A stretch of DNA of 64,000 nucleotides from a virus. The position numbers and the translations under genes were made by a program. The stretch lies in the IMG/VR virus record IMGVR_UViG_3300045988_011398. One strand, 5' to 3'. The notes below the pieces were generated by a model. It was not told where the DNA came from, searched no databases, and saw nothing but the letters and a program-made list of their open reading frames with translations. Numbering within the stretch: position 1 is the first letter of the stretch; each line of letters begins with the position of its first letter. Below are positions 5,726 to 63,056 of this stretch, piece by piece.

Positions 5726-5740
5726 GATAAGGATAAAAAG

Positions 5741-5772
5741 AAAGGGAAGTAGATTAAGTTCTACTTCCCTTT
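5741..5772. terminator. Bidirectional intrinsic terminator between convergent gene blocks
   Basis: 12-bp stem AAAGGGAAGTAG / CTACTTCCCTTT with an 8-nt loop, A-run on the left and T-run on the right. Lies between the stop at 5725 (+) and the stop at 5808 (-). Confidence 0.8.
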
Positions 5773-5807
5773 TTCTTTCTCCTTTATAAAAAATTTCACC
5801 CTACTGA

Positions 5808-48785: not shown

Positions 48786-48802
48786 AGCTTAACTAAAATT
48801 AG

Positions 48803-48872
48803 TTGCGGAGGTAGGAATTGAACCTACGGAGTCCAGCTTATGAGACTGGATTGAATACCAATTCTCCCCGCG
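48803..48872 (-). tRNA. tRNA-Met(CAT), irregular acceptor/D junction
   Basis: Anticodon arm CCAGT CTCATAA GCTGG and T arm GTAGG TTCAATT CCTAC. The acceptor is either 6 bp, or CGCGGGG/CTCCGCA with a C1xA72 mismatch. Confidence 0.6.
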
Positions 48873-48880
48873 ATGTTTAG

Positions 48881-48952
48881 TGCAGATAGACAGACTCGAA
48901 CTGTCACATTGACATTGGAAGTGTCACATACTGACCTTTATACTATACCTGC
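48881..48952 (-). tRNA. tRNA-Gly(TCC)
   Basis: Acceptor GCAGGTA/TATCTGC, anticodon arm TGACA CTTCCAA TGTCA, T arm GACAG TTCGAGT CTGTC. Confidence 0.8.
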
Positions 48953-48957
48953 ATTTG

Positions 48958-49030
48958 AGTAGATAACTGGATTTGAACCAGCCCCTTGACATTGGCAATG
49001 TCATATGCTAACCACTAACACCATACCTAC
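48958..49030 (-). tRNA. tRNA-Gly(GCC)
   Basis: Acceptor GTAGGTA/TATCTAC, anticodon loop TTGCCAA, T loop TTCAAAT, discriminator U. Confidence 0.8.
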
Positions 49031-49209
49031 ATAAAGCCAAAGATTTGCATCTGGTACTTTGGCATTGCAAGGTTTCACCTTAACTTGCACCCTCCTTCAC
49101 ATTCCACCCATATCCAGCTTGTTATAGTGTCAGCTCACTTTGGGGTTTCCATTGGACTAAGGAGTGTTAGCCTCTCACTGAATGGAATACAGCTTTTACT
49201 AACTTGTTG
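49031..49209 (-). other. 179-nt structured spacer inside the tRNA array (unassigned, possible ncRNA)
   Basis: No T-arm consensus, but several stable hairpins: GCCAAAG...CTTTGGC, AAGGT ttc ACCTT nested in GCAAG...CTTGC, and TTCCATT...AATGGAA. Confidence 0.3.
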
Positions 49210-49281
49210 AGGCTTCTGTCAGAATCGAACTGACATTACTGGGTTACAAAGCCAGTTTCCTAACCATTGAAAGAAGAAGCC
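49210..49281 (-). tRNA. tRNA-Thr(TGT)
   Basis: Acceptor GGCTTCT/AGAAGCC, T arm GTCAG TTCGATT CTGAC, anticodon loop TTTGTAA (31:39 C-C mismatch). Confidence 0.75.
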
Positions 49282-49285
49282 ATTG

Positions 49286-49369
49286 TAGCTCAAGAGGGAT
49301 TTGAACCCTCAATCCCTAAAGGGCGAGGGATTTTAAGTCCCTTGTGTATGCCAGTTCCACCATTGAGCC
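49286..49369 (-). tRNA. tRNA-Leu(TAA), type II
   Basis: Long variable arm, anticodon arm AGGGA CTTAAAA TCCCT, T arm GAGGG TTCAAAT CCCTC, G1:U72. Confidence 0.8.
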
Positions 49370-49377
49370 ATTATATA

Positions 49378-49830
49378 TTAATAAGGTCTAATATCACAAA
49401 GTTCAAATAGATACTTATACTTATTAATATTCTGAATGAATGTCTCACACTCTGAAGTAATACCTTTATATACAGTCTCCTGTGGTATCTTATCATAGAA
49501 TACTACAGTAGCACCTCTTACTTCATTTATGAAGTCTATAGCATTAAGAGTATCACTTGGAGTACCTTTTATAACATTAGGTTGCATCTTACCAAGTATT
49601 CCCATGTATCCTTCTGCAAGACTGTCTTGATAGTCTGAAAGTATGCTCAGAAATTCATCAAGATATACATGTATATTCTTCTTAGGTGCTGCCCAATGCA
49701 AGTTTTTACACTTTGTTTTCCACCCTTCAAGTCTATTCAAGAAGCTAATAAAGAACTCGGAAGGATTCATATTAGGGTCTTCTTGTTTCATTGTTTCAAG
49801 TGGTGTCAATAACATATCATCACCATACAT
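49378..49830 (-). CDS. Dps/ferritin-like four-helix protein (150 aa) embedded in the tRNA array
   Basis: KNLHWAAPKKNIHVYLDEF...DYQDSLAEGYMGILGK parallels the Dps signature (HW...H...D-x3-E ferroxidase ligands). Own promoter box at 49856-49863. Confidence 0.45.
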   Translation of the reverse strand: MYGDDMLLTPLETMKQEDPNMNPSEFFISFLNRLEGWKTKCKNLHWAAPKKNIHVYLDEFLSILSDYQDSLAEGYMGILGKMQPNVIKGTPSDTLNAIDFINEVRGATVVFYDKIPQETVYKGITSECETFIQNINKYKYLFELCDIRPY

Positions 49831-49855
49831 AAGCTTTATTGTTTATTTGATAATG

Positions 49856-49889
49856 CAAAGGTAAGTATTTTATTTGGAATATGCAAATA
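49856..49889 (-). promoter_or_regulatory. Bacteroidetes-type promoter (-7 TACCTTTG, -33 TTTGC)
   Basis: Gene-sense ATTTGCATATTCCAAATAAAATACTTACCTTTGCATTA, with the -7 box 26 nt upstream of the ATG at 49830. Confidence 0.65.
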
Positions 49890-49916
49890 AAATGCTAATT
49901 ATTTTTCAATTATTTG

Positions 49917-50005
49917 TACCCTCTGTGAGACTCGAACTCACACACTACTATTACTTCATCCCAGTTTCTAAGACTGGTGTGTCTACCAAATTCCACCAAG
50001 AGGGC
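49917..50005 (-). tRNA. tRNA-Leu(TAG), type II
   Basis: Anticodon arm CCAGT CTTAGAA ACTGG, T arm GTGAG TTCGAGT CTCAC, long variable region, G1:U72. Confidence 0.75.
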
Positions 50006-50011
50006 ATATTG

Positions 50012-50097
50012 TGCTCCTGAAGAGAGTCGAACTCTTAATCTCTATTTCAAGCCCTGACTTTTGAGGTCAGTGTGTATTCCAATTCCACCACAGGAGC
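50012..50097 (-). tRNA. tRNA-Leu(CAA), type II
   Basis: Acceptor GCTCCTG perfectly paired, anticodon arm CTGAC CTCAAAA GTCAG, T arm AAGAG TTCGACT CTCTT. Confidence 0.8.
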
Positions 50098-50103
50098 ATT
50101 ATG

Positions 50104-50179
50104 TGGGGACTCTGGGAATTGAACCACAAGCCTACAGTTTTTCAGACTGCCGTGCAATAACCACCTACACCAAGTCTCC
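50104..50179 (-). tRNA. tRNA-Phe(GAA)-like with a defective T stem
   Basis: Anticodon arm GCAGT CTGAAAA ACTGT is good. The T loop TTCAATT is flanked by only 2 clear base pairs. A3:C70 mismatch in the acceptor. Confidence 0.5.
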
Positions 50180-50247
50180 ATATTGACTTATTTGCATCTC
50201 TACCTGCATCACCTTCCATAAGTCAAGGACAAAAATTTCTATTGAAG

Positions 50248-50333
50248 TGGGAGTGGTAGGATTCGGACCTACTGAGTTTCTAATGTGCTGGTTTTACAGA
50301 CCAGTGCCCATCCACCATCTGAGCAGCACCCCC
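50248..50333 (-). tRNA. tRNA-Tyr(GTA), type II
   Basis: Acceptor GGGGGTG (one G:U), anticodon arm CTGGT CTGTAAA ACCAG, T arm GTAGG TCCGAAT CCTAC, long variable arm. Confidence 0.8.
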
Positions 50334-50341
50334 ATAATAAG

Positions 50342-50414
50342 TTCCCTCATAAGGAATCGAACCTTACTCTCAGGATTAAAAGTCCAGAGCATCCACCAAC
50401 AATGCTTTGAGGGA
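50342..50414 (-). tRNA. tRNA-Lys(TTT)
   Basis: Acceptor TCCCTCA/TGAGGGA, anticodon loop CTTTTAA, T arm TAAGG TTCGATT CCTTA. Confidence 0.75.
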
Positions 50415-50419
50415 ATATG

Positions 50420-50493
50420 TGCTCCCACAAGGACTCGAACCTTGAGTCCCCTGTTTAAGAGACAGGTGCTTTAACCAATTCAGCTATAGGAGC
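50420..50493 (-). tRNA. tRNA-Lys(CTT)
   Basis: Anticodon arm CCTGT CTCTTAA ACAGG, T arm CAAGG TTCGAGT CCTTG. Confidence 0.8.
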
Positions 50494-50500
50494 TTATAAG

Positions 50501-50575
50501 ACTTGGAGGTGGGATTTGAACCCACGAATCATCAGATTTGCAGTCTGTGCCCTTAGACCACTCAGGTACTCCAAG
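50501..50575 (-). tRNA. tRNA-Cys(GCA)
   Basis: Acceptor CTTGGAG/CTCCAAG, anticodon loop CTGCAAA, T arm GTGGG TTCAAAT CCCAC, discriminator U. Confidence 0.75.
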
Positions 50576-50579
50576 ATAG

Positions 50580-50651
50580 TACTGGTATAAGGACTTGAAC
50601 CTTCATCTTGAGTGTATAAGACTCCTGCACTAACCATTATGCTATACCAGT
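50580..50651 (-). tRNA. tRNA-Ile(TAT)
   Basis: Acceptor ACTGGTA/TACCAGT, anticodon loop CTTATAC (UAU anticodon, reads AUA), T loop TTCAAGT. Confidence 0.7.
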
Positions 50652-50658
50652 ATATTGG

Positions 50659-50730
50659 GGTGTCTGATGGGACTTGAACCCACACAATTTGGAGCCACAA
50701 TCCAAAGCTCTACCATTAAGCTACAGACAC
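50659..50730 (-). tRNA. tRNA-His(GTG)
   Basis: Acceptor GTGTCTG/CAGACAC, anticodon arm TTGGA TTGTGGC TCCAA, discriminator C. No G-1 is encoded. Confidence 0.75.
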
Positions 50731-50732
50731 AG

Positions 50733-50804
50733 TTCTGATGGATAGACTCGAACTATCAACTACTGCCTTATGAGAGCAGCTTTCTACCATTGAAATACAT
50801 CAGA
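50733..50804 (-). tRNA. tRNA-Met or Ile2 (CAT)
   Basis: Acceptor TCTGATG/CATCAGA, anticodon arm CTGCT CTCATAA GGCAG, T arm GATAG TTCGAGT CTATC. Confidence 0.75.
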
Positions 50805-50811
50805 ATATAAG

Positions 50812-50884
50812 TGGGCAAGTAAGGACTCGAACCTTCATTACTTGAATATCAGTCAAGCTTCCTGACCAATTAGAAGACATGCCC
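50812..50884 (-). tRNA. tRNA-Ile(GAT)
   Basis: Anticodon arm CTTGA CTGATAT TCAAG, T loop TTCGAGT, one U:U mismatch at 6:67. Confidence 0.7.
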
Positions 50885-50891
50885 ATTTTAG

Positions 50892-50964
50892 CTAAGGTGG
50901 CAGGACTTGAACCCACAACTGCTGGTTTTGGAGACCAGTGTTCTACCAATTGAACTACACCCTA
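50892..50964 (-). tRNA. tRNA-Trp(CCA)
   Basis: Anticodon arm CTGGT CTCCAAA ACCAG, T loop TTCAAGT, discriminator G. Confidence 0.8.
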
Positions 50965-50970
50965 ATTTAG

Positions 50971-51043
50971 TTGCAGGTAGTGGATTTGCACCACTGTTCC
51001 CCCCATTATGAGTGGGGCAAGATAACTACTTCTCCAACCTGCG
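50971..51043 (-). tRNA. tRNA-fMet-like (CAT) with a C1xA72 mismatch
   Basis: Acceptor CGCAGGT/ACCTGCA (C1 opposite A72, the bacterial initiator hallmark). Anticodon arm CCCCA CTCATAA TGGGG. Unusual T loop TGCAAAT. Confidence 0.7.
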
Positions 51044-51156
51044 GAAGAAACATCAAATCATGTGATTATGTCTCCTTATTGCACTCAGAGACTTTTCAGA
51101 AATGATGGCATCAAGTATTGCAAGCTACTTGACTGAACTTCTTGCAAAAGTTCTTG

Positions 51157-51228
51157 CGGGAAGTGTAGGACTCGAACCTACAGCCTGAGGATTAACAGTC
51201 CCCTGCTCTACCATTGAGCTAACAACCC
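51157..51228 (-). tRNA. tRNA-Asn(GTT) with two U:U mismatches in the acceptor stem
   Basis: Canonical D arm AGCTCAATGGTAGAGCA, anticodon loop CTGTTAA, T arm GTAGG TTCGAGT CCTAC. Acceptor GGGTTGT vs ACTTCCC. Confidence 0.6.
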
Positions 51229-51236
51229 ATTATTAG

Positions 51237-51310
51237 TTGCTCCTATTAGAATCGAACTAATGACCTTCTGTGTGTAAAACAGACATTCTGAACCACTGAA
51301 CTAAGGAGCA
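51237..51310 (-). tRNA. tRNA-Val(TAC)
   Basis: Acceptor TGCTCCT/AGGAGCA, anticodon arm TCTGT TTTACAC ACAGA, T arm ATTAG TTCGATT CTAAT. Confidence 0.8.
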
Positions 51311-51396
51311 ATGAAGGCAGTTTCTTTAATCTCTAACTGCCCAAAAGAGTGTCCAAAGCAAAAGCTCTAACATTATGAAAACATGAAAACAATGAG

Positions 51397-51469
51397 TGGA
51401 GAATGAGGGACTTGAACCCTAAACTCTTCTTTGCAAAAGAAGTGTGTTAGCCAATTACACCACAAACCC
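51397..51469 (-). tRNA. tRNA-Ala(TGC)-like with a poorly paired acceptor stem
   Basis: Anticodon arm CTTCT TTTGCAA AGAAG and D arm GTGT/ACAC are good, and G3:U70 is possible. Positions 4-7 of the acceptor are mismatched against ATTCTCC. Confidence 0.5.
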
Positions 51470-51475
51470 CATTAG

Positions 51476-51551
51476 TAGAGTAGACAAGACTCGAACTTGC
51501 AATATCACTGCATCCCAAATGCAGGGGGCTAACCAATTACCCTACTACTCT
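51476..51551 (-). tRNA. tRNA-Pro(TGG)
   Basis: Acceptor AGAGTAG/CTACTCT, anticodon arm CTGCA TTTGGGA TGCAG, T loop TTCGAGT. Confidence 0.75.
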
Positions 51552-51558
51552 ATATTTG

Positions 51559-51643
51559 CGGAGAGCATTGTACTCGAAACAAATGCCTTTTACAGCACAC
51601 ATTACTTAGCAGGTAAGTCCACTGCCTCAGTGGTTTACTCTCC
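51559..51643 (-). tRNA. tRNA-Ser(GCT), type II
   Basis: Anticodon loop CTGCTAA, long variable arm, T arm ATTGT TTCGAGT ACAAT, discriminator G. Confidence 0.75.
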
Positions 51644-51668
51644 ATTAATCAGCCTTTCAAAGAACATG

Positions 51669-51753
51669 CGGAGGAATGAGGTCCCGACCCCCAAGCATTT
51701 TACTGCTCAATCTGTTTTCAAGACAGTTCCCAGTCCCACTGAGTTACCCCTCC
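51669..51753 (-). tRNA. tRNA-Ser(TGA), type II, atypical T loop
   Basis: Anticodon loop CTTGAAA, variable arm AGCA...TGCT, discriminator G. T loop GTCGGGA deviates from the TTCRANY consensus. Confidence 0.6.
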
Positions 51754-51759
51754 ATTGGC

Positions 51760-51830
51760 AGGATGTGGGGGAATTGAACCCCAATCTCCTGATTGACAGT
51801 CAGGCACATTAACCACTATGCTACACACCC
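51760..51830 (-). tRNA. tRNA-Asp(GTC) with a 4-bp T stem
   Basis: Acceptor GGGTGTG/CACATCC (G3:U70), anticodon arm CCTGA CTGTCAA TCAGG, T arm GGGG TTCAATT CCCC. Confidence 0.65.
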
Positions 51831-51839
51831 TATAATATG

Positions 51840-51912
51840 TAGTGTCACTGAGAATTGAACTCAGATTTCCAGTTTGAGAGACTGGTTGCCTCACCATTTA
51901 GCAGATGACACC
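51840..51912 (-). tRNA. tRNA-Glu(CTC)
   Basis: Anticodon arm CCAGT CTCTCAA ACTGG, T arm CTGAG TTCAATT CTCAG. Confidence 0.8.
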
Positions 51913-51918
51913 ATTTAG

Positions 51919-51991
51919 TATTGGGTAGGAGACTTGAACTCCTCTCTTCAGATTGAAAGTCTGATGAACTGACCACCTATTCTAACCCAAC
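51919..51991 (-). tRNA. tRNA-Glu(TTC)
   Basis: Anticodon arm TCAGA CTTTCAA TCTGA, T arm AGGAG TTCAAGT CTCCT. Confidence 0.8.
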
Positions 51992-51998
51992 ATTTATG

Positions 51999-52070
51999 TA
52001 CCCCCTGAGGGAATCGAACCCCCATTAAAGGCTTAGAAGACCCTTGCATTATCCATTATACTAAGAGGGC
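51999..52070 (-). tRNA. tRNA-Arg(TCT)
   Basis: Anticodon loop CTTCTAA, T loop TTCGATT, acceptor GCCCTCT with two G:U pairs. Confidence 0.7.
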
Positions 52071-52078
52071 ATTTATTG

Positions 52079-52150
52079 TTGCTGTTAGAGGACTCGAACC
52101 TCTACTATAAGAGCCAAAATCTTATGTGACTACCATTACACCAAACAGCA
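52079..52150 (-). tRNA. tRNA-Gln(TTG)
   Basis: Acceptor TGCTGTT/AACAGCA, anticodon arm TAAGA TTTTGGC TCTTA, T arm AGAGG TTCGAGT CCTCT. First gene of the array. Confidence 0.8.
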
Positions 52151-53866: not shown

Positions 53867-54701
53867 ATTGTGTGCAATGTTTTATGATTCAATTAATTAA
53901 GTCTGTGAACTGAATGAAACTGGTTCACCTTATAAATTGAACTTATGCAGTGCTGTAGTCAGGTGAAGGTAGTAATGCAAAACCCCTCACTACTTTGCCA
54001 ATTTGAATCATCAACAAATCACCATCAATCTGTAATGTATAGCTAAATTTACTGAGTGCAACACAAAATCAAACTATTGATAACCTGATTAAATATCACC
54101 CCAATGCACAATATTGCCCAGTTTATTTGTGAATAATAGTAGCAAAAGACACCAAACACAGGGCTAAATGTGTGAGAGAACAAACTAATAATCCTATAAT
54201 CACTGATTAGTCATACATTATTTCTTATTTAGACTACTGAGGAGCATGACTTAATGAAAGTTAGCTGGGAAGTAAAGATACATACACCTCCAAGGACTGT
54301 GTGAGATTAAAAGGGTGATTTCATCACTCAGAATACATCAATAGCTTAGTGAGTGGAAAGGAATAGACTCAACTTAGAACCCAGAAACAAGTAATGAGTA
54401 AGATTGTGAACTGTGTATCCAATATTGTGTAGTAAAATAAAATATGATGTAGTAAAGTGGCACAGGTTTATGTTCAGTGCATTAAATAGGTAATGGAGAC
54501 TAAAGAGACATACATTATATAATAATATTGTCTTGGATAAAGTCTGACCTTCTATCTTTACAGGATTAATCAAGAGAACTACAAAGCACATTAGTTTAAT
54601 GGAAAACATTATTGAGGTATAGTACTTAATAATATGATGGTTCAAATCCATCATGTGCTTCAATTAACAAACAACAATCAATCAATCAAACTTTCAAACA
54701 A

Positions 54702-56721: not shown

Positions 56722-57183
56722 ATGGGACAGAAATGGCAATATTACGGTTTATTTCTTAATAAAGAGGCAAAAATACAATTATTTACAATGGTAGTAGCGA
56801 ATTTTTTGAATAATATTAAGAACCCCAACAAAGTATGTTTGGACCATTGTACTTTATTGCATAAATCTCAATTAGACAATGATAATACCATATTCCTTAA
56901 TAGATGTATAAAATCCAGACTTGATTATCTATTGGAGAATAATATAATCAGAGCTAAATTGATGATTACCTCAGTAGGTATATCTGAAAAAGCTATGGCT
57001 TTCAAAGTTATAATTCTTAATAATAATGAGGGAATATATGACTATGAAATCTGTGCTAACGAGATACCACATATTACTATTTGCACATTTAATGGTGGTA
57101 AGCCAGTAGATAGTAATAATATTGTTAAGTGGCATGATTTAGATGAGCCTATAGAGATTGAAACAACACTAAAAAGAGTATAA
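56722..57183 (+). CDS. 2H phosphoesterase superfamily protein (two HxT motifs), Acb1-like or LigT-like
   Basis: 153 aa. LDHCTLLH (H42-x-T44) and IPHITICT (H117-x-T119). Size and motif spacing are those of small 2H cyclic-nucleotide/2',3'-cyclic phosphodiesterases. Confidence 0.6.
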   Translation: MGQKWQYYGLFLNKEAKIQLFTMVVANFLNNIKNPNKVCLDHCTLLHKSQLDNDNTIFLNRCIKSRLDYLLENNIIRAKLMITSVGISEKAMAFKVIILNNNEGIYDYEICANEIPHITICTFNGGKPVDSNNIVKWHDLDEPIEIETTLKRV

Positions 57184-57531: not shown

Positions 57532-58065
57532 ATGAACAAGAAACTAAGATTGCTTGTTACGACAGATTGTCCTAACAAGTGCCCTATGTGCTGCAATAAT
57601 CAGTTTGATTTCAGCAAACTGCCTGTAGTAGATAGGTGGAATTATGATGAAATCATGATTACTGGAGGTGAACCTTTGTTGTTTACAGATACTTTAGTAG
57701 AGGTATTAATTTCCATAAAAGAATTAAGTTCTCTCACTGGAAACCATCCTAAACTATTTATTTATACTGCTGATTGCACTAACAAGATTATTAAAGTCTT
57801 ACCCCATGTTGATGGTATAGTACTTACTCCACACAAGCAATCAGATATTGTACACTTTATTGAACTAAATAAGTTCATACTTGTACATAAGACCCAATTT
57901 TATATCCGAGATACATCACTTAGATTAAATCTTTTTCCTGACATGAAAGCCCTCTTACCTAAAGATATTGATTTATCATTATGGGAAGTAAAAGATATGG
58001 AGTGGATAGAAAACTGTCCAGTTCCAGAGGGTGAGGACTTCAGGAGAATAGCTAATTTATGGTAA
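57532..58065 (+). CDS. Small radical-SAM enzyme (177 aa), NrdG/QueE-sized
   Basis: CPNKCPMC (CxxxCxxC) at residues 13-20 and IMITGGEPLLF (GGE SAM-binding motif). Confidence 0.6.
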   Translation: MNKKLRLLVTTDCPNKCPMCCNNQFDFSKLPVVDRWNYDEIMITGGEPLLFTDTLVEVLISIKELSSLTGNHPKLFIYTADCTNKIIKVLPHVDGIVLTPHKQSDIVHFIELNKFILVHKTQFYIRDTSLRLNLFPDMKALLPKDIDLSLWEVKDMEWIENCPVPEGEDFRRIANLW

Positions 58066-58400: not shown

Positions 58401-58725
58401 GGGGCATGATTTGGTTTTGATTGCTGATTATCAGGTAAGAGAACATGCAGAGACTGATGGAGAGACATCAAACAATTAACTGGCAATACTTCTTATAGAG
58501 TTGCTGCCTAAACATAGGCTGAGCAGCACTTGCTTGGAAACAGAAAGGTGCAATAGTGGTGGATTTTCCTTATTTATCTGACCCTGACAAGTTAAATAAG
58601 GTGGTGGAATGGTATGTCAATCCGGGCAACCCCAGTAGATAACCAACTGCACATCAAATAGGTAAGCATGTGAAATTCTTTTACAGGAGATTAGTAAGAC
58701 AGGGGTTCGAGTCCCCTATGCTCCA
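58401..58725 (+). ncRNA. ssrA: tmRNA (ssrA-like) with tag ORF GNTSYRVAA-stop
   Basis: 5' GGGGCATGATTTGGTTTTGATTGC matches the tmRNA 5' consensus. 3' GACAGGGGTTCGAGTCCCCTATGCTCCA gives a T arm plus acceptor. Acceptor GGGGCAT/ATGCTCC has G3:U70 (Ala identity). Internal frame GGC AAT ACT TCT TAT AGA GTT GCT GCC TAA lies at 58482-58511. CCA is not encoded. Confidence 0.85.
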
Positions 58726-58752
58726 CATTAAACTTAATTAATTCTTAAAACA

Positions 58753-59354: not shown

Positions 59355-59389
59355 AAGTTCCCAATTTTCTTGTGTAATTGGGAACTTTT
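59355..59389 (+). terminator. Intrinsic terminator
   Basis: 12-bp stem AAGTTCCCAATT / AATTGGGAACTT with a 9-nt loop, followed by TT. The 3' arm abuts the next promoter. Confidence 0.7.
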
Positions 59390-59400
59390 ACTTACCTTTG
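59368..59400 (+). promoter_or_regulatory. Bacteroidetes-type promoter for the Ro60/Y-RNA unit (-7 TACCTTTG, -33 CTTG)
   Basis: CTTGTGTAATTGGGAACTTTTACTTACCTTTGCAGTG, with the -7 box 30 nt upstream of the ATG at 59430. Same extended consensus as the minus-strand promoters. Confidence 0.65.
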
Positions 59401-59429
59401 CAGTGTCAAACAATTAAAAAGACAAAGAA

Positions 59430-60839
59430 ATGAGTAAAGTAAATCCGTCATTGAAGAAAACCTCAAAGTTTGAGGAAGAAAGATTGGCTGGTGGTTCAGG
59501 TGCATTAGCAGCTAAACAGAGTAATGTTGCATTGTTGAGGAGAGCAGTATTAGCTAATCTTCTTTGGGAAGATGTAGCATACATGGATGGAATGAAGGTT
59601 GCTGAAGAAATTCAGAGATTGATTCCTTTGTGTCCTGCTGAAGATGTATATCACATTGCTCTTGAAGCAAGGACAATGCAGAAGTTAAGACATACTCCTT
59701 TATTCCTTGCAGTGGAAATGTGCAAGTATCCTGAGCATAAGAAGTTTGTGCAAGAATTGCTGCCTCAGATTATCACAAGAGCAGACATGCTTACTGATTT
59801 CTTGGCTATTTATTGGAGGGATGGTAAGAAACCTATTGCTAATCAAGCAAAGAAAGGTTTGGCAAAGGCATTCCATAATTTCAATGAATACAAGTTTGCT
59901 AAATATGATAGAGATGCAGCTATTAAGCTGAGAGATGTCATGTTCTTATGCAGACCTAAGCCTGAGAATCAGTATGAGCAGACTTTGTTCAAGAAGGTAG
60001 CAGATAGAACTCTTGCAACACCTGAGACATGGGAAGTGCTACTGTCTACTGGAAAGGATAAGAAAGAGTCTTGGGCTAAACTTATCACTGAAGGTAAGAT
60101 TGGTGGTCTGGCTATGTTGAGAAATATAGCCAACATGAGAAGAGCAAGTGTGGACAAGAAGGTGATTGAAGAAGGTCTTGAGAAGTTGAAATCTTCAATG
60201 CTCATGCCTTTGGACTTCTTGAAAGCAAATAAAATGAACCCTGAGTTCAGCAGACAGATAGAGGATGCTATGATAAGTAGCTATGCTAATTTGCCTGAGT
60301 TGAAAGGTAAGACTCTTTTCATTGTGGATGTGTCAGGTTCTATGCAAGCTCCAATGTCTGCAAAATCTGATTTCAGCAGATATGATGCAGCATGTGCTAT
60401 GGCTATGTTAGCAGCCAATCAGTGTGAGGACTATGAAATAGTTTGTACTGCTGGTAATGACTACTCTCATACAGGAGCACATGAGCATATTCCTTATCCT
60501 CAGAAAGGTTTTGGAATCTTTGAACAAATCCATAGCACTAATAGGAGAATTGGAGGTGGAGGTATATTCACCAGACAATGCCTTGAATGGTGTAATGACA
60601 AGTTCAAGGGTCAGAAGTTTGATAGAATCATTGTATTCTCAGACTCTCAAGACTGTGACTTGCCTGCAAGGAGAGTTCCTAAACCTTTTGGTACTTACAA
60701 CTATATTTGTGATGTGTCAGCACACACAAAAGGTGTAAACTACAGAGGTGCATGGACTGCTGAGATAAGTGGCTTCTCGGAGCATTTCATCACATTCATT
60801 GCAGCAATGGAAGGTATTCAGAATACCTTTGAAGAATAA
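59430..60839 (+). CDS. rsr: Ro60-like protein (TROVE domain + vWA domain with a MIDAS motif), Rsr ortholog candidate
   Basis: 469 aa. N-terminal RLAGGSGALAAKQSNVALLRRAVLANLLWEDVAY and VYHIALEARTMQKLRHTPLFLAVEM resemble TROVE signatures. C-terminal LFIVDVSGSMQAPMS (DxSxS MIDAS) and IIVFSDSQD indicate a vWA fold. A Y-RNA-like element starts 4 nt after the stop. Confidence 0.7.
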   Translation: MSKVNPSLKKTSKFEEERLAGGSGALAAKQSNVALLRRAVLANLLWEDVAYMDGMKVAEEIQRLIPLCPAEDVYHIALEARTMQKLRHTPLFLAVEMCKYPEHKKFVQELLPQIITRADMLTDFLAIYWRDGKKPIANQAKKGLAKAFHNFNEYKFAKYDRDAAIKLRDVMFLCRPKPENQYEQTLFKKVADRTLATPETWEVLLSTGKDKKESWAKLITEGKIGGLAMLRNIANMRRASVDKKVIEEGLEKLKSSMLMPLDFLKANKMNPEFSRQIEDAMISSYANLPELKGKTLFIVDVSGSMQAPMSAKSDFSRYDAACAMAMLAANQCEDYEIVCTAGNDYSHTGAHEHIPYPQKGFGIFEQIHSTNRRIGGGGIFTRQCLEWCNDKFKGQKFDRIIVFSDSQDCDLPARRVPKPFGTYNYICDVSAHTKGVNYRGAWTAEISGFSEHFITFIAAMEGIQNTFEE

Positions 60840-60842
60840 AAC

Positions 60843-60986
60843 AAAGAGTACTGTGTAGTGTTTTGTCAGACTTACTTCATTAACTAAGTGGTATAGTGCA
60901 AAACTTTTAATTTTGATGTCACAGGTTCGAGTCCTGTATGAGATTGGGGAAACCTAAGTCTGACATCTGTTCTCACAGTACTCTTT
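60843..60986 (+). ncRNA. YrlA-like Y RNA: a long terminal helix carrying an embedded tRNA-like cloverleaf
   Basis: Terminal 13-bp helix AAAGAGTACTGTG/CACAGTACTCTTT, an internal loop, then 10-bp GTCAGACTTA/TAAGTCTGAC. Inside: acceptor-like TTCAT/ATGAG, D arm ACTA AGTGGTA TAGT, anticodon-like arm CAAAA CTTTTAA TTTTG, T arm ACAGG TTCGAGT CCTGT. Confidence 0.65.
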
Positions 60987-60993
60987 TCAATAT

Positions 60994-61125
60994 GGAGGAG
61001 TTAGCTCAGTTGGTAGAGCACTTAAATGTTACTCTGTCAAATGTTCCATAGTAATATTGGTGGCAGATAGAGTTACTTCGGTATGTGGAACCAGTGGTCA
61101 TAGGTTCGAGTCCTATACTCCTCCC
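60994..61125 (+). ncRNA. tRNA-like RNA 1: canonical acceptor, D and T arms, with ~74 nt in place of the anticodon arm
   Basis: GGAGGAGT...ACTCCTCC (8 bp possible), D arm GCTC AGTTGGTA GAGC, T arm ATAGG TTCGAGT CCTAT. The insert contains stem ACTCTGTC/GATAGAGT, a GTAA-capped hairpin and the motif AGAGTTACTTCGGT. Confidence 0.55.
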
Positions 61126-61126
61126 T

Positions 61127-61235
61127 AAATGCAGTATAGTGTACATTAGACTTTCATCAATTTGAATTTGATAATAGTTGCGGATATGCTTTTGCAAAGT
61201 GTATATATTGTCTGATGGCTTTTCTTACTGCATTT
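61127..61235 (+). ncRNA. Stem-closed structured RNA (unassigned)
   Basis: 10-bp terminal helix AAATGCAGTA/TACTGCATTT enclosing ~90 nt with internal hairpins (ATCAA...TTGAT; TTGC...GCAA). No ORF. Confidence 0.4.
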
Positions 61236-61243
61236 CACAATAT

Positions 61244-61375
61244 GGGGATGTAGCTAAATAAATTCATACTCTTATGCCTTTTCTCTGGTAAAGCAGTAGT
61301 GTTTGTAAGAGTTACTTCGGTTATAGCATTTGTCTTGTAAACAAAAGTATATTGGTTCGAGTCCAATCATCCCCG
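61244..61375 (+). ncRNA. tRNA-like RNA 2, paralog of tRNA-like RNA 1
   Basis: Acceptor GGGGATG/CATCCCC, T arm ATTGG TTCGAGT CCAAT, degenerate D region. The insert has a covarying stem ACTCTTA/TAAGAGT followed by the same AGAGTTACTTCGGT motif. Same 5' flank CAATATGG as RNA 1. Confidence 0.55.
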
Positions 61376-61381
61376 CAAAAT

Positions 61382-61518
61382 AGAGGTTGGTGTATGTAGT
61401 GGTTACTTCATATTATACATGACTATATTTGAATTTAACCCCCACAGATGTAAACAGACTGATTCTGTGGTTTCAATACATACAAAAACAACATGCCATT
61501 ACAGGATGTTCCACCTCT
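61382..61518 (+). ncRNA. Stem-closed structured RNA (unassigned)
   Basis: Terminal helix AGAGGT(T)GG/CCACCTCT. Inner pairings GTATGTA/TACATAC and hairpin CCACAGA...TCTGTGG. Contains GGTTACTTC, related to the motif in the tRNA-like RNAs. Confidence 0.4.
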
Positions 61519-61521
61519 TTA

Positions 61522-61553
61522 GGGCTACAGTAGAAATATTGTAGCCCTTTTTT
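61522..61553 (+). terminator. Intrinsic terminator closing the Ro60/ncRNA transcription unit
   Basis: GGGCTACA ...10-nt loop... TGTAGCCC followed by TTTTTT. Confidence 0.8.
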
Positions 61554-61554
61554 A

Positions 61555-61582
61555 TTTGAGTATGTTACCAAACATATATTTG
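61555..61582 (+). promoter_or_regulatory. Bacteroidetes-type promoter (-33 TTTG, -7 TATATTTG)
   Basis: TTTG at 61555-61558 and TATATTTG at 61575-61582, 27 nt upstream of the ATG at 61609. Confidence 0.55.
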
Positions 61583-62513: not shown

Positions 62514-63056
62514 ATGGCAGAATTTGTATATTTCAAGAATGCTTGTAGGATGTGGTATCCTGTAGGACAGTATTTCTCTTCAGATAACTTTGATTATATA
62601 AGAGAAGCTGCATCTTCCATTAATAAAGTATTCCCAACAGGTAAACTTATCTTGGTAGTAAGAGGACACTCAGGCTCCATACTTGCAGGTGGTATAGCAT
62701 ATATACTGAAAAGAAAAGACAGGGATGTATTAATATCTGTGTCAAGGAAAGCAGAATCTACTCATGGTGATAATCTTGAAGGTATATCATCATATACTGT
62801 ATCAGGTGACACACACATAATAGTTGTTGATGACTTTGTTCAAACAGGTGAAACTATTGAGGCTATACTCAAAGATTTGACTGAAAGAATAGAGGATATG
62901 AAAGTATTTGACATGTTATGTGTTGCTAATCACTGGGATGAGGATGATTTGACTGAGGAAGGAGGAAAGAGAGGAACTAACAGATATTGGGAGGCAAACA
63001 AAAGGATTGCTTCTCATTTTGAGTATATATTGTGTAACAGACCAGATGAGGAATGA
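62514..63056 (+). CDS. Type I phosphoribosyltransferase-fold protein (180 aa)
   Basis: PRPP-binding signature HIIVVDDFVQTGETI, upstream LILVVRGHSGSILAG loop. Confidence 0.55.
   Translation: MAEFVYFKNACRMWYPVGQYFSSDNFDYIREAASSINKVFPTGKLILVVRGHSGSILAGGIAYILKRKDRDVLISVSRKAESTHGDNLEGISSYTVSGDTHIIVVDDFVQTGETIEAILKDLTERIEDMKVFDMLCVANHWDEDDLTEEGGKRGTNRYWEANKRIASHFEYILCNRPDEE

What the first reader, a model, noticed from the sequence alone, without database searches (positions are those of the whole stretch)
59368..61553. Phage-encoded Ro60 (TROVE-vWA) protein transcribed with a YrlA-like Y RNA and a train of four further structured RNAs
A single promoter-to-terminator unit (promoter 59368-59400, terminator 61522-61553) holds a 469-aa ORF with TROVE-like N-terminal signatures and a vWA MIDAS motif (DVSGSM). 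Four nt after its stop begins a 144-nt RNA whose ends form 13-bp and 10-bp helices. Its interior is a complete tRNA-like cloverleaf (D arm, anticodon-like arm with loop CTTTTAA, T arm GGTTCGAGTCC, 5-bp acceptor-like stem). That is the architecture described for bacterial YrlA RNAs, which tether Ro60/Rsr to exoribonucleases. Four more stem-closed RNAs follow back to back with almost no spacer. A Ro60 RNP module inside a crAss-like gut phage, with this many cognate RNAs, is not something I know to be described. It could remodel host RNA decay or quality control, or protect the phage tRNA set.
Basis: partly seen in the sequence, partly recalled or inferred. Interest (0 to 1): 0.92.

Follow-up and report, generated by a model that had tools for sequence, protein, structure and literature searches.

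The report
Gut phage Ro60 with tRNA-like RNAs
A relative of the human-gut phage crAss001 carries an early operon that encodes a Ro60-type RNA-binding ring protein followed by five small structured RNAs that all share one previously undescribed conserved motif, three of them built on tRNA bodies; this is a new variant of the known Ro60/Y-RNA particle.

Summary
ORF 59430-60839 is a Ro60-type protein. It passes Pfam TROVE, has an invariant MIDAS motif, and its AF2 model (pLDDT 90.5) matches solved Ro60 rings over the full length.

Five back-to-back structured RNAs follow at 60843-61518, ending at a terminator.
- In RNA1, RNA3 and RNA5, helix X is the terminal stem.
- In RNA2 and RNA4, the same module is circularly permuted. 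It is inserted into the anticodon stem of a His-like tRNA body (RNA2) and into the D-loop of a Thr-like tRNA body (RNA4).
- RNA1 carries a Lys-like tRNA beyond helix Y.

Covariation across about 57 related loci is strong, and the motif is strictly strand-specific. It also sits beside TROVE genes that are only 38-49% identical to this one.

These RNAs are not YrlA members. They score 20.8 bits against a threshold of 69, have no GNCGAA motif, and their tRNA domains are not permuted.

The TROVE gene of crAss001 is already annotated and known to be an early gene, and phage Ro60/Y-RNA particles are already described. I found no paper describing this RNA family.

Verdict: a new variant of a known kind.

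The parts
59357..59389 (+). Terminator-like hairpin of the upstream ORF (GTTCCCAATT / AATTGGGAAC, 9-nt loop, then TTTT). It marks the start of the unit.
   Evidence: Read from the sequence. The weak Phe_leader hit on the minus strand picks up the same hairpin.
59369..59400 (+). Promoter-like region. It has a -33-like CTTG (TTTG in the nine relatives aligned) and a -7 box TACCTTTG at 59393-59400.
   Evidence: Both boxes are conserved in the alignment of 10 upstream regions. They fit the Bacteroides TTTG/TAnnTTTG consensus, which I recall from my own knowledge. There is no sigma-70 match.
59430..60839 (+). Ro60-type protein of 469 aa. The TROVE/HEAT ring is roughly aa 24-290 and the vWA domain aa 291-461. 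The MIDAS motif DVSGS is aa 300-304 (nt 60327-60341).
   Evidence: Pfam TROVE E=8.9e-14. AF2 pLDDT 90.5, pTM 0.87. Foldseek TM 0.71-0.75 to X. laevis and human Ro60, 0.61-0.63 to Thermus phage Ro60, 0.54 to D. radiodurans Rsr. phmmer to 9kop/9l5y gives E=9e-16 over aa 24-461.
60843..60986 (+). RNA1, terminal-type Y-like RNA. X helix AAAGAGUACUGUG/CACAGUACUCUUU; loops UAGUG and UGUUCU; Y helix UGUCAGACUUA/UAAGUCUGACA. UUACUUC runs into the acceptor stem of a tRNA-Lys(UUU)-like cloverleaf at 60874-60945.
   Evidence: Compensatory changes in helix X and the T stem in L008.
60995..61124 (+). RNA2, a tRNA body with 7-bp acceptor stem, D arm and T arm. The module (61031-61079: ACUCUGUC, UGUUCC, hairpin, UGGUG, GAUAGAGU, UACUUC) is inserted in the 5' strand of the anticodon stem. 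Without the insert, ARAGORN calls it tRNA-His(GUG).
   Evidence: Rfam tRNA 46.1 bits with a 70-nt insert. ARAGORN. Across 30 homologues, 98.7% of cells are paired and 17 of 28 pairs show compensatory changes.
61127..61235 (+). RNA3, terminal-type Y-like RNA. X helix AAAUGCAGUA/UACUGCAUUU; loops UAGUG and UUUUCU; Y helix CAUUAGAC/GUCUGAUG. It has the variant UUUCAUC in place of UUACUUC.
61244..61375 (+). RNA4, a tRNA body with the module (61268-61318) inserted in the D-loop. The anticodon arm is UUUGU-CUUGUAA-ACAAA. Without the insert, ARAGORN calls it tRNA-Thr(UGU).
   Evidence: Rfam tRNA partial hit, 34.3 bits. ARAGORN. Across 28 homologues, 94.5% of cells are paired and 18 of 35 pairs show compensatory changes.
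61382..61518 (+). RNA5, terminal-type Y-like RNA. X helix AGAGGU/ACCUCU; loops UGGUG and UGUUCC; Y helix UGUAGUGGU/GCCAUUACA; then UUACUUC and a roughly 90-nt distal domain of unknown fold.
   Evidence: Homologues lie at the same position in crAss001 (L001 6135-6278).
61521..61553 (+). Intrinsic terminator that closes the unit: 12-bp stem AGGGCUACAGUA/UAUUGUAGCCCU followed by a T-run.

Best explanation
This is an early-expressed operon of a crAss001-like (Steigviridae) Bacteroides phage that makes a Ro60/Y-RNA-type ribonucleoprotein.

The protein is a compact Ro60 orthologue: a TROVE HEAT-repeat ring plus a vWA domain with a MIDAS site. The five RNAs transcribed behind it are its Y-RNA-like partners.

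Each RNA displays the same module:
- helix X;
- a bulged U, then a two-pair step (R-G opposite C-Y) inside the conserved strands URGUG and (UG)UUCY;
- helix Y;
- the invariant single-stranded UUACUUC where helix Y opens.

I infer that this bulged helix is the docking site for the phage Ro60. It would play the role of the bulged GGUCCGA/GNCGAA helix of animal and bacterial Y RNAs.

The rest of each RNA is the effector part.
- In RNA1, RNA2 and RNA4 it is a complete tRNA body. It is attached at the acceptor end (RNA1), through the anticodon stem (RNA2) or through the D-loop (RNA4).
- In RNA3 and RNA5 it is a non-tRNA domain.

By analogy with the Deinococcus/Salmonella Rsr-Y RNA-PNPase machine and with Thermus phage phiRo60, the particles would tether Ro60 to host RNA enzymes. 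Candidates are a 3'-5' exoribonuclease such as PNPase and, through the tRNA bodies, tRNA-recognising proteins. This would re-programme or blunt host RNA decay and tRNA surveillance in the first minutes of infection.

Shown here: protein family and fold, RNA structures, the shared motif, and its co-occurrence with the TROVE gene.
Inferred: protein-RNA binding, the host partners, and the effect on the host.
For: Protein:
- Pfam TROVE above threshold.
- The confident AF2 model matches every solved Ro60/Rsr ring over the full length.
- The closest solved sequence is Thermus phage phiLo Ro60. That protein binds two phage-encoded Y-like RNAs and host PNPase (PMC12135203).

RNAs:
- RNA4 structure: 94.5% paired against 40-51% when the partners are slid; 18 pairs with compensatory changes.
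- RNA2 structure: 98.7% paired against 37-48% slid; 17 of 28 pairs compensatory.

Shared motif:
- The terminal-type scan gave 165 hits on the + strand of 58 sequences (470 kb). It gave 0 on the - strand and about 2 per shuffle set.
- 159 of the 165 hits are followed by UUAC(U/A)UC, although this was not required. There are 77 distinct versions with unrelated X and Y helix sequences.
- The inserted-type scan gave 105 hits on +, 3 on -, and about 1.6 per shuffle set.
- The R/Y step covaries: UAGUG with UUCU 232 times, UGGUG with UUCC 38 times, mixed 5 times.

Co-occurrence with TROVE:
- The module lies next to the gene on the same strand in all crAss001-like loci examined.
- It also lies next to TROVE genes only 49%, 43%, 40% and 38% identical: L058, L156, L173 and L126.
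- In L058 it closes a canonical permuted YrlA-type T-AS-D domain.

Expression:
- The homologous crAss001 gene is transcribed 0-10 min after infection (PMC8375218).
- A conserved promoter and a single terminator bracket the gene and the RNAs.
Against: - No experiment shows that the RNAs accumulate or that the protein binds them.
- The motif resembles no known Ro60-binding sequence, so docking is inferred only from co-occurrence and from the bulged-helix geometry.
- The RNAs fail the YrlA covariance model, and the protein fails the NCBIfam Rsr equivalog model (16 bits against 900).
- Several more distant TROVE homologues have coding genes or ordinary tRNAs as neighbours, and the scan found no motif there: L060, L062 and L063.
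- Nothing here identifies the host partner.
- The Thermus phage precedent showed attenuation of PNPase in vitro only.
Confidence: 0.7

Rival explanations
1. RNA2 and RNA4 (and perhaps RNA1) are precursors of working tRNAs. The conserved module would be an intron-like or excisable insertion that is removed, possibly with help from the Ro60-like protein acting as an RNA chaperone, to give decoding tRNA-His, tRNA-Thr and tRNA-Lys.
For: After the insert is deleted in silico, ARAGORN calls RNA2 tRNA-His(GUG) at 74 nt and RNA4 tRNA-Thr(UGU) at 75 nt. The RNA1 core is called tRNA-Lys(UUU). Acceptor, D and T stems are conserved with covariation.
Against: - The same module occurs in 77 distinct RNAs with no tRNA body at all.
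- The insertion sites differ (D-loop, anticodon-stem 5' strand, outside the acceptor) and match no known bacterial intron type (my own knowledge).
- Anticodon arms change freely between close relatives while the acceptor stem stays constant: 12 different arms in 28 RNA4 homologues, some loops of 6, 8 or 9 nt. This does not fit a fixed tRNA identity.
- The phage already carries His, Thr and Lys tRNAs in its 27-tRNA array.
Confidence: 0.08
2. The RNAs act independently of the TROVE protein. They would be free-standing tRNA mimics or decoys, or a processing/stability array for the early transcript. The conserved module would be recognised by some other phage or host factor, such as an RNase or the virion RNA polymerase.
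For: - Binding to the TROVE protein is not demonstrated.
- The motif is unlike known Ro60 sites.
- In cr112_1 an HNH gene sits between the TROVE gene and the RNAs, so the two are separable.
Against: - The module tracks TROVE genes across 38-99% protein identity and switches from downstream to upstream with them.
- Of the first 120 pattern hits in IMG/VR, those that also pass the helix test have a TROVE gene alongside. The one exception is L109, a short locus.
- In L058 the module closes a canonical YrlA-type domain, which is the Ro60-partner position.
Confidence: 0.15
3. The region is a non-functional remnant: decayed tRNA genes and fortuitous hairpins in a long 3' UTR.
For: The MFE z-scores of RNA2 to RNA5 are modest on their own, -1.7 to -2.8.
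Against: Dozens of compensatory base-pair changes, invariant loop motifs, strict strand specificity, and retention across about 57 loci at about 70% nucleotide identity.
Confidence: 0.02

Closest known systems
Bacterial Ro60 (Rsr) with YrlA/Yrn1 Y RNAs (Deinococcus, Salmonella, Mycobacterium, mycobacteriophages; Chen et al. 2014, PMC4201824; Rfam RF02553)
   Same: A TROVE-vWA ring protein with one or more ncRNA genes within about 1 kb on the same strand. The RNAs have a long closing helix with an internal bulge and a distal tRNA-like domain. A relative of this system (L058) carries the canonical permuted T-AS-D domain.
   Different: - No GNCGAAN0-1G motif. The conserved strands are URGUG/UUCY plus UUACUUC instead.
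- The tRNA parts are complete and not permuted.
- They join the module in three different topologies, two of them as insertions inside the tRNA.
- There are five RNAs per operon.
- The YrlA model scores 20.8 bits against 69.
- The protein is about 60 aa shorter than Rsr and fails the Rsr equivalog model.
phiRo60 with Yrl1/Yrl2 of Thermus phage phiLo (Hu et al. 2025, PMC12135203; PDB 9KOP, 9L5Y)
   Same: A phage-encoded Ro60 and the closest solved structure by sequence (E=9e-16, full length). It comes with phage-encoded Y-like RNAs beside the gene. It offers a plausible functional model: binding host PNPase and damping it.
   Different: - About 20% identity.
- The Thermus RNAs lie upstream, were picked out by a CGAA motif, and are not tRNA-like.
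- There are two RNAs rather than five.
- The host is a thermophile.
crAss001 gp96 'TROVE domain-containing protein' (MH675552; Shkoporov et al. 2021, PMC8375218)
   Same: The direct homologue: 77% protein identity by tblastn (L017 is the crAss001 genome) and 73% DNA identity over the locus. It has the same position, the same early-gene context, and the same downstream RNA array (L001 5465-6330).
   Different: In the record and the papers I could read, only the protein is annotated. The 0.9-kb region downstream is left blank.
Ordinary phage tRNA genes and tmRNA
   Same: RNA1, RNA2 and RNA4 contain acceptor, D, anticodon and T elements that score on the tRNA model. The same genome has a 27-tRNA array and a tmRNA.
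   Different: The tRNA body is locked inside 23 bp of extra helix (RNA1) or interrupted by a 50-70-nt structured insert (RNA2, RNA4). Anticodon arms are not conserved between orthologues.

Membership tests
Ro60 / Rsr (TROVE-vWA ring proteins) | TROVE domain detected above the curated threshold | tested here: met
   PF05731 E=8.9e-14, 51.9 bits against 23.
Ro60 / Rsr (TROVE-vWA ring proteins) | C-terminal vWA domain with a MIDAS motif (DxSxS...T...D) | tested here: met
   vWA_Ro60 and VWA_2 hits lie just below their cut-offs. D300, S302, S304 and D405 are invariant and T340 is nearly invariant in 65 homologues. The model shows a Rossmann-like beta/alpha pattern over aa 291-447.
Ro60 / Rsr (TROVE-vWA ring proteins) | Ring-shaped HEAT-repeat fold superimposable on solved Ro60 | tested here: met
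   The AF2 model (pLDDT 90.5) matches 2i91 (TM 0.75), 1yvr (0.71), 9nep (0.72), 9kop (0.63) and 2nvo (0.54), all with probability 1.0. This is a predicted model, not a solved structure.
Ro60 / Rsr (TROVE-vWA ring proteins) | Membership of the bacterial Rsr equivalog (NCBIfam NF041674) | tested here: not met
   16.1 bits against a cut-off of 900. It is a separate, largely phage-borne subfamily with 3219 clusters at 50% identity.
Ro60 / Rsr (TROVE-vWA ring proteins) | Binds Y RNAs or misfolded RNAs | not testable with these tools
   Needs EMSA, RIP or CLIP.
YrlA (Rfam RF02553) | Covariance-model score at or above the gathering threshold | tested here: not met
   20.8 bits against 69. The hit spans the T arm of RNA1 to the D arm of RNA2, a tandem-tRNA artefact.
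YrlA (Rfam RF02553) | GNCGAAN0-1G motif near the 5' end | tested here: not met
   No G.CGAA and no CGAA in 60840-61560.
YrlA (Rfam RF02553) | Permuted tRNA-like domain (T arm, closed acceptor-like stem, D arm), with the Ro-binding helix in place of the anticodon stem | tested here: not met
   RNA1, RNA2 and RNA4 have the normal order acceptor-D-anticodon-T. The permuted form is present in the relative L058 at 2798-2934.
YrlA (Rfam RF02553) | Encoded within 4 kb of the Ro60 gene on the same strand | tested here: met
   4 to 680 nt downstream, same strand.
tRNA (Rfam RF00005) | Scores above the tRNA model threshold | tested here: met
   RNA1 core 59 bits; RNA2 46.1 bits (with a 70-nt insert); RNA4 34.3 bits (partial). 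The threshold is 29.
tRNA (Rfam RF00005) | Uninterrupted cloverleaf with free acceptor end | tested here: not met
   The RNA1 acceptor stem continues into 23 bp of extra helix. RNA2 and RNA4 carry 50-70-nt structured inserts, and ARAGORN finds them only after the insert is deleted.
tRNA (Rfam RF00005) | Anticodon conserved among orthologues (fixed identity) | tested here: not met
   There are 12 different anticodon arms among 28 RNA4 homologues and 19 variants among 30 RNA2 homologues. Some loops have 6, 8 or 9 nt.
Thermus phage phiRo60-Yrl RNP | Full-length sequence similarity to phiRo60 | tested here: met
   phmmer E=9e-16 over aa 24-461.
Thermus phage phiRo60-Yrl RNP | Forms a complex with host PNPase and attenuates it | not testable with these tools
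   A biochemical property reported in PMC12135203.

The most novel reading that the evidence does not exclude
The tRNA-bodied members of the array may be a Ro60-held library of anticodon-arm mimics. Each phage lineage swaps in different anticodon stem-loops on a constant scaffold; Lys-UUU-like CUUUUAA is the commonest, and there are also His-, Thr-, Pro-, Ile-, Met-, Tyr-, Glu- and Ser-like arms. The particles would act as decoys or traps for host tRNA-targeting defence nucleases or tRNA-surveillance enzymes, or would hand damaged tRNAs to an exonuclease. Ro60 would supply stability or nuclease coupling. That would be a new counter-defence principle in the most abundant human-gut phage group.
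Probability: 0.15. Interest if true: 0.85.

Novelty: new variant of a known kind. Interest (0 to 1): 0.62.

Why it matters
Ro60/Y-RNA particles are conserved from bacteria to humans and are poorly understood. In bacteria, only one RNA family (YrlA) and one type of docking motif are catalogued.

This locus defines a second, sequence-distinct docking module. Nature has used it in two circular permutations and grafted it onto tRNAs at three different sites. That is a natural experiment on how Y RNAs are built and on what the tRNA-like part is for.

The system sits in crAss001-type phages, which are cultivable with Bacteroides intestinalis and already have time-resolved RNA-seq. The predictions are therefore directly testable.

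If the particles redirect host RNA decay or tRNA surveillance, that would explain one of the few conserved early genes of this dominant gut-phage group. It may also bear on the reported link between gut-commensal Ro60 orthologues and anti-Ro60 autoimmunity (from my own knowledge).

Tried and rejected
- Rfam search of the locus and of three GenBank relatives. It found only tRNA and tmRNA hits. The YrlA hits are sub-threshold and span two adjacent tRNA-like elements, so YrlA membership is rejected.
- Sigma-70 promoter scan. It found nothing at the proposed promoter. The alignment showed a Bacteroides-type -33/-7 pair instead.
- IMG/VR pattern scan for the terminal-type motif. It became useful only after filtering for helix complementarity, so I cannot give a census of the family.
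- MAFFT alignment of the X hairpin in RNA2. The variable loop lengths misalign it, and my first structure string was unbalanced. I dropped those pairs from the count.
- A possible pseudoknot between UUACUUC and the X-hairpin loops (GUAA, GAAG). Many loops are complementary, but several are not (UCAUA, UUUG), and UUACUUC never varies. It cannot be tested by covariation and I did not pursue it.
- A search for RNA-repair partners near the locus. It found only a 2H-phosphoesterase-type ORF. There was no RNA ligase or kinase among the nine neighbours scanned, and I did not scan the whole window.
- More distant TROVE homologues at 35-42% identity, L060-L063. I detected no motif. Their neighbours are coding genes or ordinary tRNAs.
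- Literature searches linking crAss phages with Ro60, Y RNA or tRNA-like RNAs. Nothing turned up beyond the 'TROVE domain protein' mention.


Full report
**What the window is.** The locus is about 73-74% identical in DNA to Bacteroides phage crAss001 and the PhiCrAssBcn isolates (Crassvirales, Steigviridae, Kehishuvirus). Less of the query matches the uncultured phages cr112_1 and cr106_1. In all of these records the ORF under the match is annotated 'TROVE domain-containing protein' or 'RNA-binding protein'. In crAss001 it is gp96. The 0.9 kb between gp96 and gp95 carries no annotation. The crAss001 literature mentions the gene once, as one of the early genes switched on 0-10 min after infection and 'a possible ribonucleoprotein component' (PMC8375218; repeated in the review PMC10136315).

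**The protein.** ORF 59430-60839 encodes 469 aa.
- It passes Pfam TROVE at E=8.9e-14, 51.9 bits against a threshold of 23. It has near-threshold hits to vWA_Ro60 and VWA_2.
- It does not fit the NCBIfam Rsr equivalog model, scoring 16 bits against 900.
- An exhaustive HMMER search finds 3219 clusters at 50% identity with E<=1e-3, and 765 with E<=1e-30. Most are 430-500 aa long.
- In an alignment of 65 of these, the MIDAS residues D300, S302, S304 and D405 are invariant.
- An AlphaFold2 model built on that alignment is confident: pLDDT 90.5, pTM 0.87.
- Foldseek against the PDB returns only Ro60 structures at the top, all aligned over the full length. These are X. laevis Ro60 (2i91 TM 0.75, 1yvr 0.71), human Ro60 complexes (9nep 0.72), Thermus phage phiLo Ro60 (9kop/9l5y 0.61-0.63) and D. 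radiodurans Rsr (2nvo 0.54). The next hits are unrelated vWA or repeat proteins with E>1e-3.
- By sequence, the only solved relatives are the Thermus phage protein entries, at E=9e-16 over aa 24-461.

So the ORF is a real Ro60-type ring protein from a compact subfamily that I saw mainly on phage-like contigs.

**The RNAs: is the observation real?** Yes.
- RNA1 (60843-60986) starts 4 nt after the stop codon. Its ends form a 13-bp helix and a 10-11-bp helix. Its MFE lies 4.4 SD below shuffles.
- ARAGORN and the Rfam tRNA model (59 bits) both call the RNA1 interior, 60874-60945, a tRNA with anticodon loop CUUUUAA.
- RNA2 to RNA5 follow with spacers of 8, 2, 8 and 6 nt. A 12-bp terminator at 61521-61548 closes the unit.
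- Rfam also scores 60995-61124 as a tRNA with a 70-nt insertion (46 bits), and 61310-61367 as a partial tRNA (34 bits).

**Comparative evidence.** A back-translated search of IMG/VR with the protein brought in 54 loci at 71-99% protein identity.
- RNA2 and RNA4 are retained in about 45 of them at about 70-75% nucleotide identity. RNA1, RNA3 and RNA5 are recognisable by BLAST only in the closest relatives.
- For RNA4 I wrote a structure by hand: acceptor, D stem, module helices, anticodon stem and T stem. On 28 distinct sequences, 94.5% of cells are paired against 40-51% when the partners are slid. 18 of 35 pairs show changes on both sides.
- For RNA2, on 30 sequences, 98.7% are paired against 37-48% slid, and 17 of 28 pairs are compensatory. 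All seven acceptor pairs are among them.
- RNA1 has little diversity. The most distant copy (L008) shows compensatory changes in the terminal helix (CUGUG/CACAG to CUAUG/CAUAG) and a swapped T stem.

**The shared module.** This is the main new result. Reading the alignments showed that all five RNAs contain one motif, which I write as 5'-X-URGUG-(1-5 nt)-Y-UUACUUC ... Y'-(N)-(UG)UUCY-X'-3'.
- In RNA1, RNA3 and RNA5, helix X is the terminal stem and helix Y leads to the distal domain.
- In RNA2 and RNA4 the order is Y'-UGUUCY-[X hairpin]-URGUG-Y-UACUUC. This is the exact circular permutation of the same motif: X is capped by a loop and Y opens into a tRNA body.

A simple scanner asked only for URGUG, UUCY, at least 5 bp of X and at least 5 bp of Y. 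Its results:
- 165 terminal-type instances on the coding strand of the 58 sequences (470 kb), none on the opposite strand, and about 2 per shuffled set.
- 159 of the 165 are followed by UUAC(U/A)UC, although this was not required.
- They collapse to 77 distinct versions whose X and Y helices have unrelated sequences.
- The inserted-type scan gave 105 hits on the coding strand, 3 on the other strand and about 1.6 per shuffle.
- With the R/Y constraint removed, UAGUG goes with UUCU 232 times and UGGUG with UUCC 38 times. Only 5 are mixed (also pair 70-89).

So the 'internal loop' is really a two-pair step (R-Y and G-C) next to a bulged U. In the window the motif occurs only at 60843-61518. Three other hits lack UUACUUC and look like chance. 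Loci carry 1-5 terminal-type copies, most often 3, plus usually two inserted-type copies.

**tRNA bodies.**
- When the insert is deleted in silico, ARAGORN calls RNA2 tRNA-His(GUG) and RNA4 tRNA-Thr(UGU).
- In RNA2 the module sits in the 5' strand of the anticodon stem. The outer 2-bp stem covaries (CG, GC, AU, UA).
- In RNA4 the module sits in the D-loop. The D stem covaries between GCU/AGC and GUG/CAC.
- In RNA1 the tRNA hangs on helix Y, and UUACUUC runs into its acceptor strand.
- The anticodon arms are not conserved between orthologues. There are 12 different arms among 28 RNA4 homologues and 19 variants among 30 RNA2 homologues. CUUUUAA is the commonest loop, and some loops have 6, 8 or 9 nt. 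The acceptor, D and T stems stay similar.

This argues against a fixed decoding identity.

**Link to the TROVE gene and to canonical Y RNAs.**
- A 49%-identical homologue on a 72-kb contig (L058) has three terminal-type RNAs with UGGUG/UUCC and UUACUUC immediately upstream of its TROVE gene.
- The third of these encloses a T arm, a closed acceptor-like stem and a D arm. This is the permuted YrlA-type domain, and it gives a partial YrlA hit of 34 bits.
- In an unbiased pattern scan of IMG/VR, which was cut at 120 mostly chance hits, the matches that also pass the helix test lie beside TROVE genes 40%, 43% and 38% identical to the query (L173, L156, L126). One further locus (L109) is too short to tell.
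- Some more distant homologues showed no motif.

The module therefore travels with this TROVE subfamily and occupies the place of the Ro60-binding helix in a canonical Y RNA.

**Why it is not YrlA.**
- The Rfam model gives 20.8 bits (threshold 69), and the hit runs across two adjacent tRNA-like elements. Chen et al. describe this kind of false positive.
- There is no GNCGAAN0-1G motif and no CGAA at all.
- The tRNA domains are not permuted.

Defining features taken from PMC4201824 were tested and not met. I file these RNAs as Y-RNA-like partners of a Ro60 orthologue, not as YrlA.

**Transcription unit.**
- Upstream of the ORF there is a terminator-like hairpin of the preceding gene at 59357-59385.
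- It is followed by a -7 box, TACCTTTG, at 59393-59400 and a -33-like element. Both are conserved in 10 relatives and fit the Bacteroides TTTG/TAnnTTTG promoter type (my own knowledge).
- No terminator lies between the ORF and 61521.
- Co-transcription of the protein and the RNAs is therefore likely but not shown.

**Mechanism.** The best-supported reading is a phage Ro60/Y-RNA particle made early in infection.
- The bulged X/Y helix with URGUG, UUCY and UUACUUC would be the protein's docking site. This is inferred from invariance, geometry and co-occurrence.
- The distal domains would be effector or tether parts.
- The nearest experimental precedents are the Rsr-Y RNA-PNPase machine of Deinococcus and Salmonella (PMC4201824) and Thermus phage phiRo60. 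The latter binds two phage Y-like RNAs and host PNPase and attenuates PNPase in vitro (PMC12135203).
- The tRNA bodies suggest recruitment of, or competition for, tRNA-recognising host proteins. Their freely exchanged anticodon arms suggest bait or decoy use. That part is speculation, and I give it 0.15.

**Rivals.**
- Pre-tRNAs with an excisable insert: probability 0.08.
- RNAs that work without the TROVE protein: 0.15.
- Non-functional remnants: 0.02.

**Novelty and score.**
- Already known: Ro60 orthologues in phages with adjacent Y RNAs (2014, 2025), and the TROVE gene of crAss001 (2018-2021).
- Apparently new: the RNA array in crAss-type phages, its distinct conserved module, the two circular permutations, the three ways of grafting it onto tRNAs, and the hypervariable anticodon arms. 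There is no Rfam family for it, and nothing turned up in five literature searches.

I rate this a new variant of a known kind, with interest 0.62. It is a clear, well-supported and testable finding for RNA and phage biologists, but not a new category of system.

Noticed in passing
window 58401-58728 (+): A phage-encoded tmRNA. Rfam scores it 66.4 bits against a threshold of 47, and ARAGORN gives the tag peptide GNTSYRVAA*. It lies about 0.7 kb upstream of the Ro60 operon on the same strand. The relative cr106_1 has one annotated, but crAss001 has none in the 4 kb upstream of gp96 that I looked at.
   Followed up: partly
window 48802-52150 (-): An array of 27 tRNA genes on the opposite strand, covering most amino acids. 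It includes His(GUG), Thr(UGU) and Lys(UUU), the three identities mimicked by RNA2, RNA4 and RNA1.
   Followed up: partly
window 54585-54661 (+): A tRNA-like gene for which ARAGORN reports a four-base anticodon (atag). crAss001 has a similar 'tRNA-OTHER (taat)'. It could be a frameshift or suppressor-type tRNA, or another mimic.
   Followed up: no
window 56722-57183 (+): A 153-aa ORF that hits Pfam tRNA_lig_CPD (PF08302, E=5.7e-9, above threshold). It has two HxT motifs (HCT, HIT), so it is a 2H phosphoesterase. It could heal RNA ends or, like the phage Acb1-type enzymes I recall, degrade cyclic-nucleotide defence signals.
   Followed up: partly
window 57532-58065 (+) and 62514-63056 (+): The first is a small ORF with a cysteine-rich, radical-SAM-like N-terminus and only a weak Pfam hit. 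The second is a phosphoribosyltransferase-domain ORF (PF00156, at threshold). They flank the Ro60 operon.
   Followed up: no
L002 (cr112_1) 5463-5975; L026, L029, L031, L042: In some relatives an HNH endonuclease gene, or another ORF of about 0.5 kb, is inserted between the TROVE stop codon and the RNA array. The junction therefore appears to be a hotspot for mobile insertions.
   Followed up: no
L001 (crAss001) 5465-5550 and 5885-5985: Two further structured stretches in the crAss001 array do not carry the URGUG/UUCY motif. One is a hairpin closed by AAAGAGUGAG/CUCACUCUUU directly after the stop codon. The other is a segment between the two tRNA-bodied RNAs that ends in a GGUAG...CUACC hairpin.
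   Followed up: no
L003 1330-1439, L060 2391-2456, window 60895-61053: Sub-threshold Rfam YrlA hits arise wherever a T arm is followed by the D arm of the next tRNA-like gene. This is a systematic artefact to keep in mind when screening phage tRNA arrays for Y RNAs.
   Followed up: yes
window 60990-60994 and 61240-61243: Both tRNA-bodied RNAs with inserts are preceded by the same short leader, AAUAUG|G. This is conserved as A(U/A)AUG in many relatives and may be a processing (RNase P) context.
   Followed up: no
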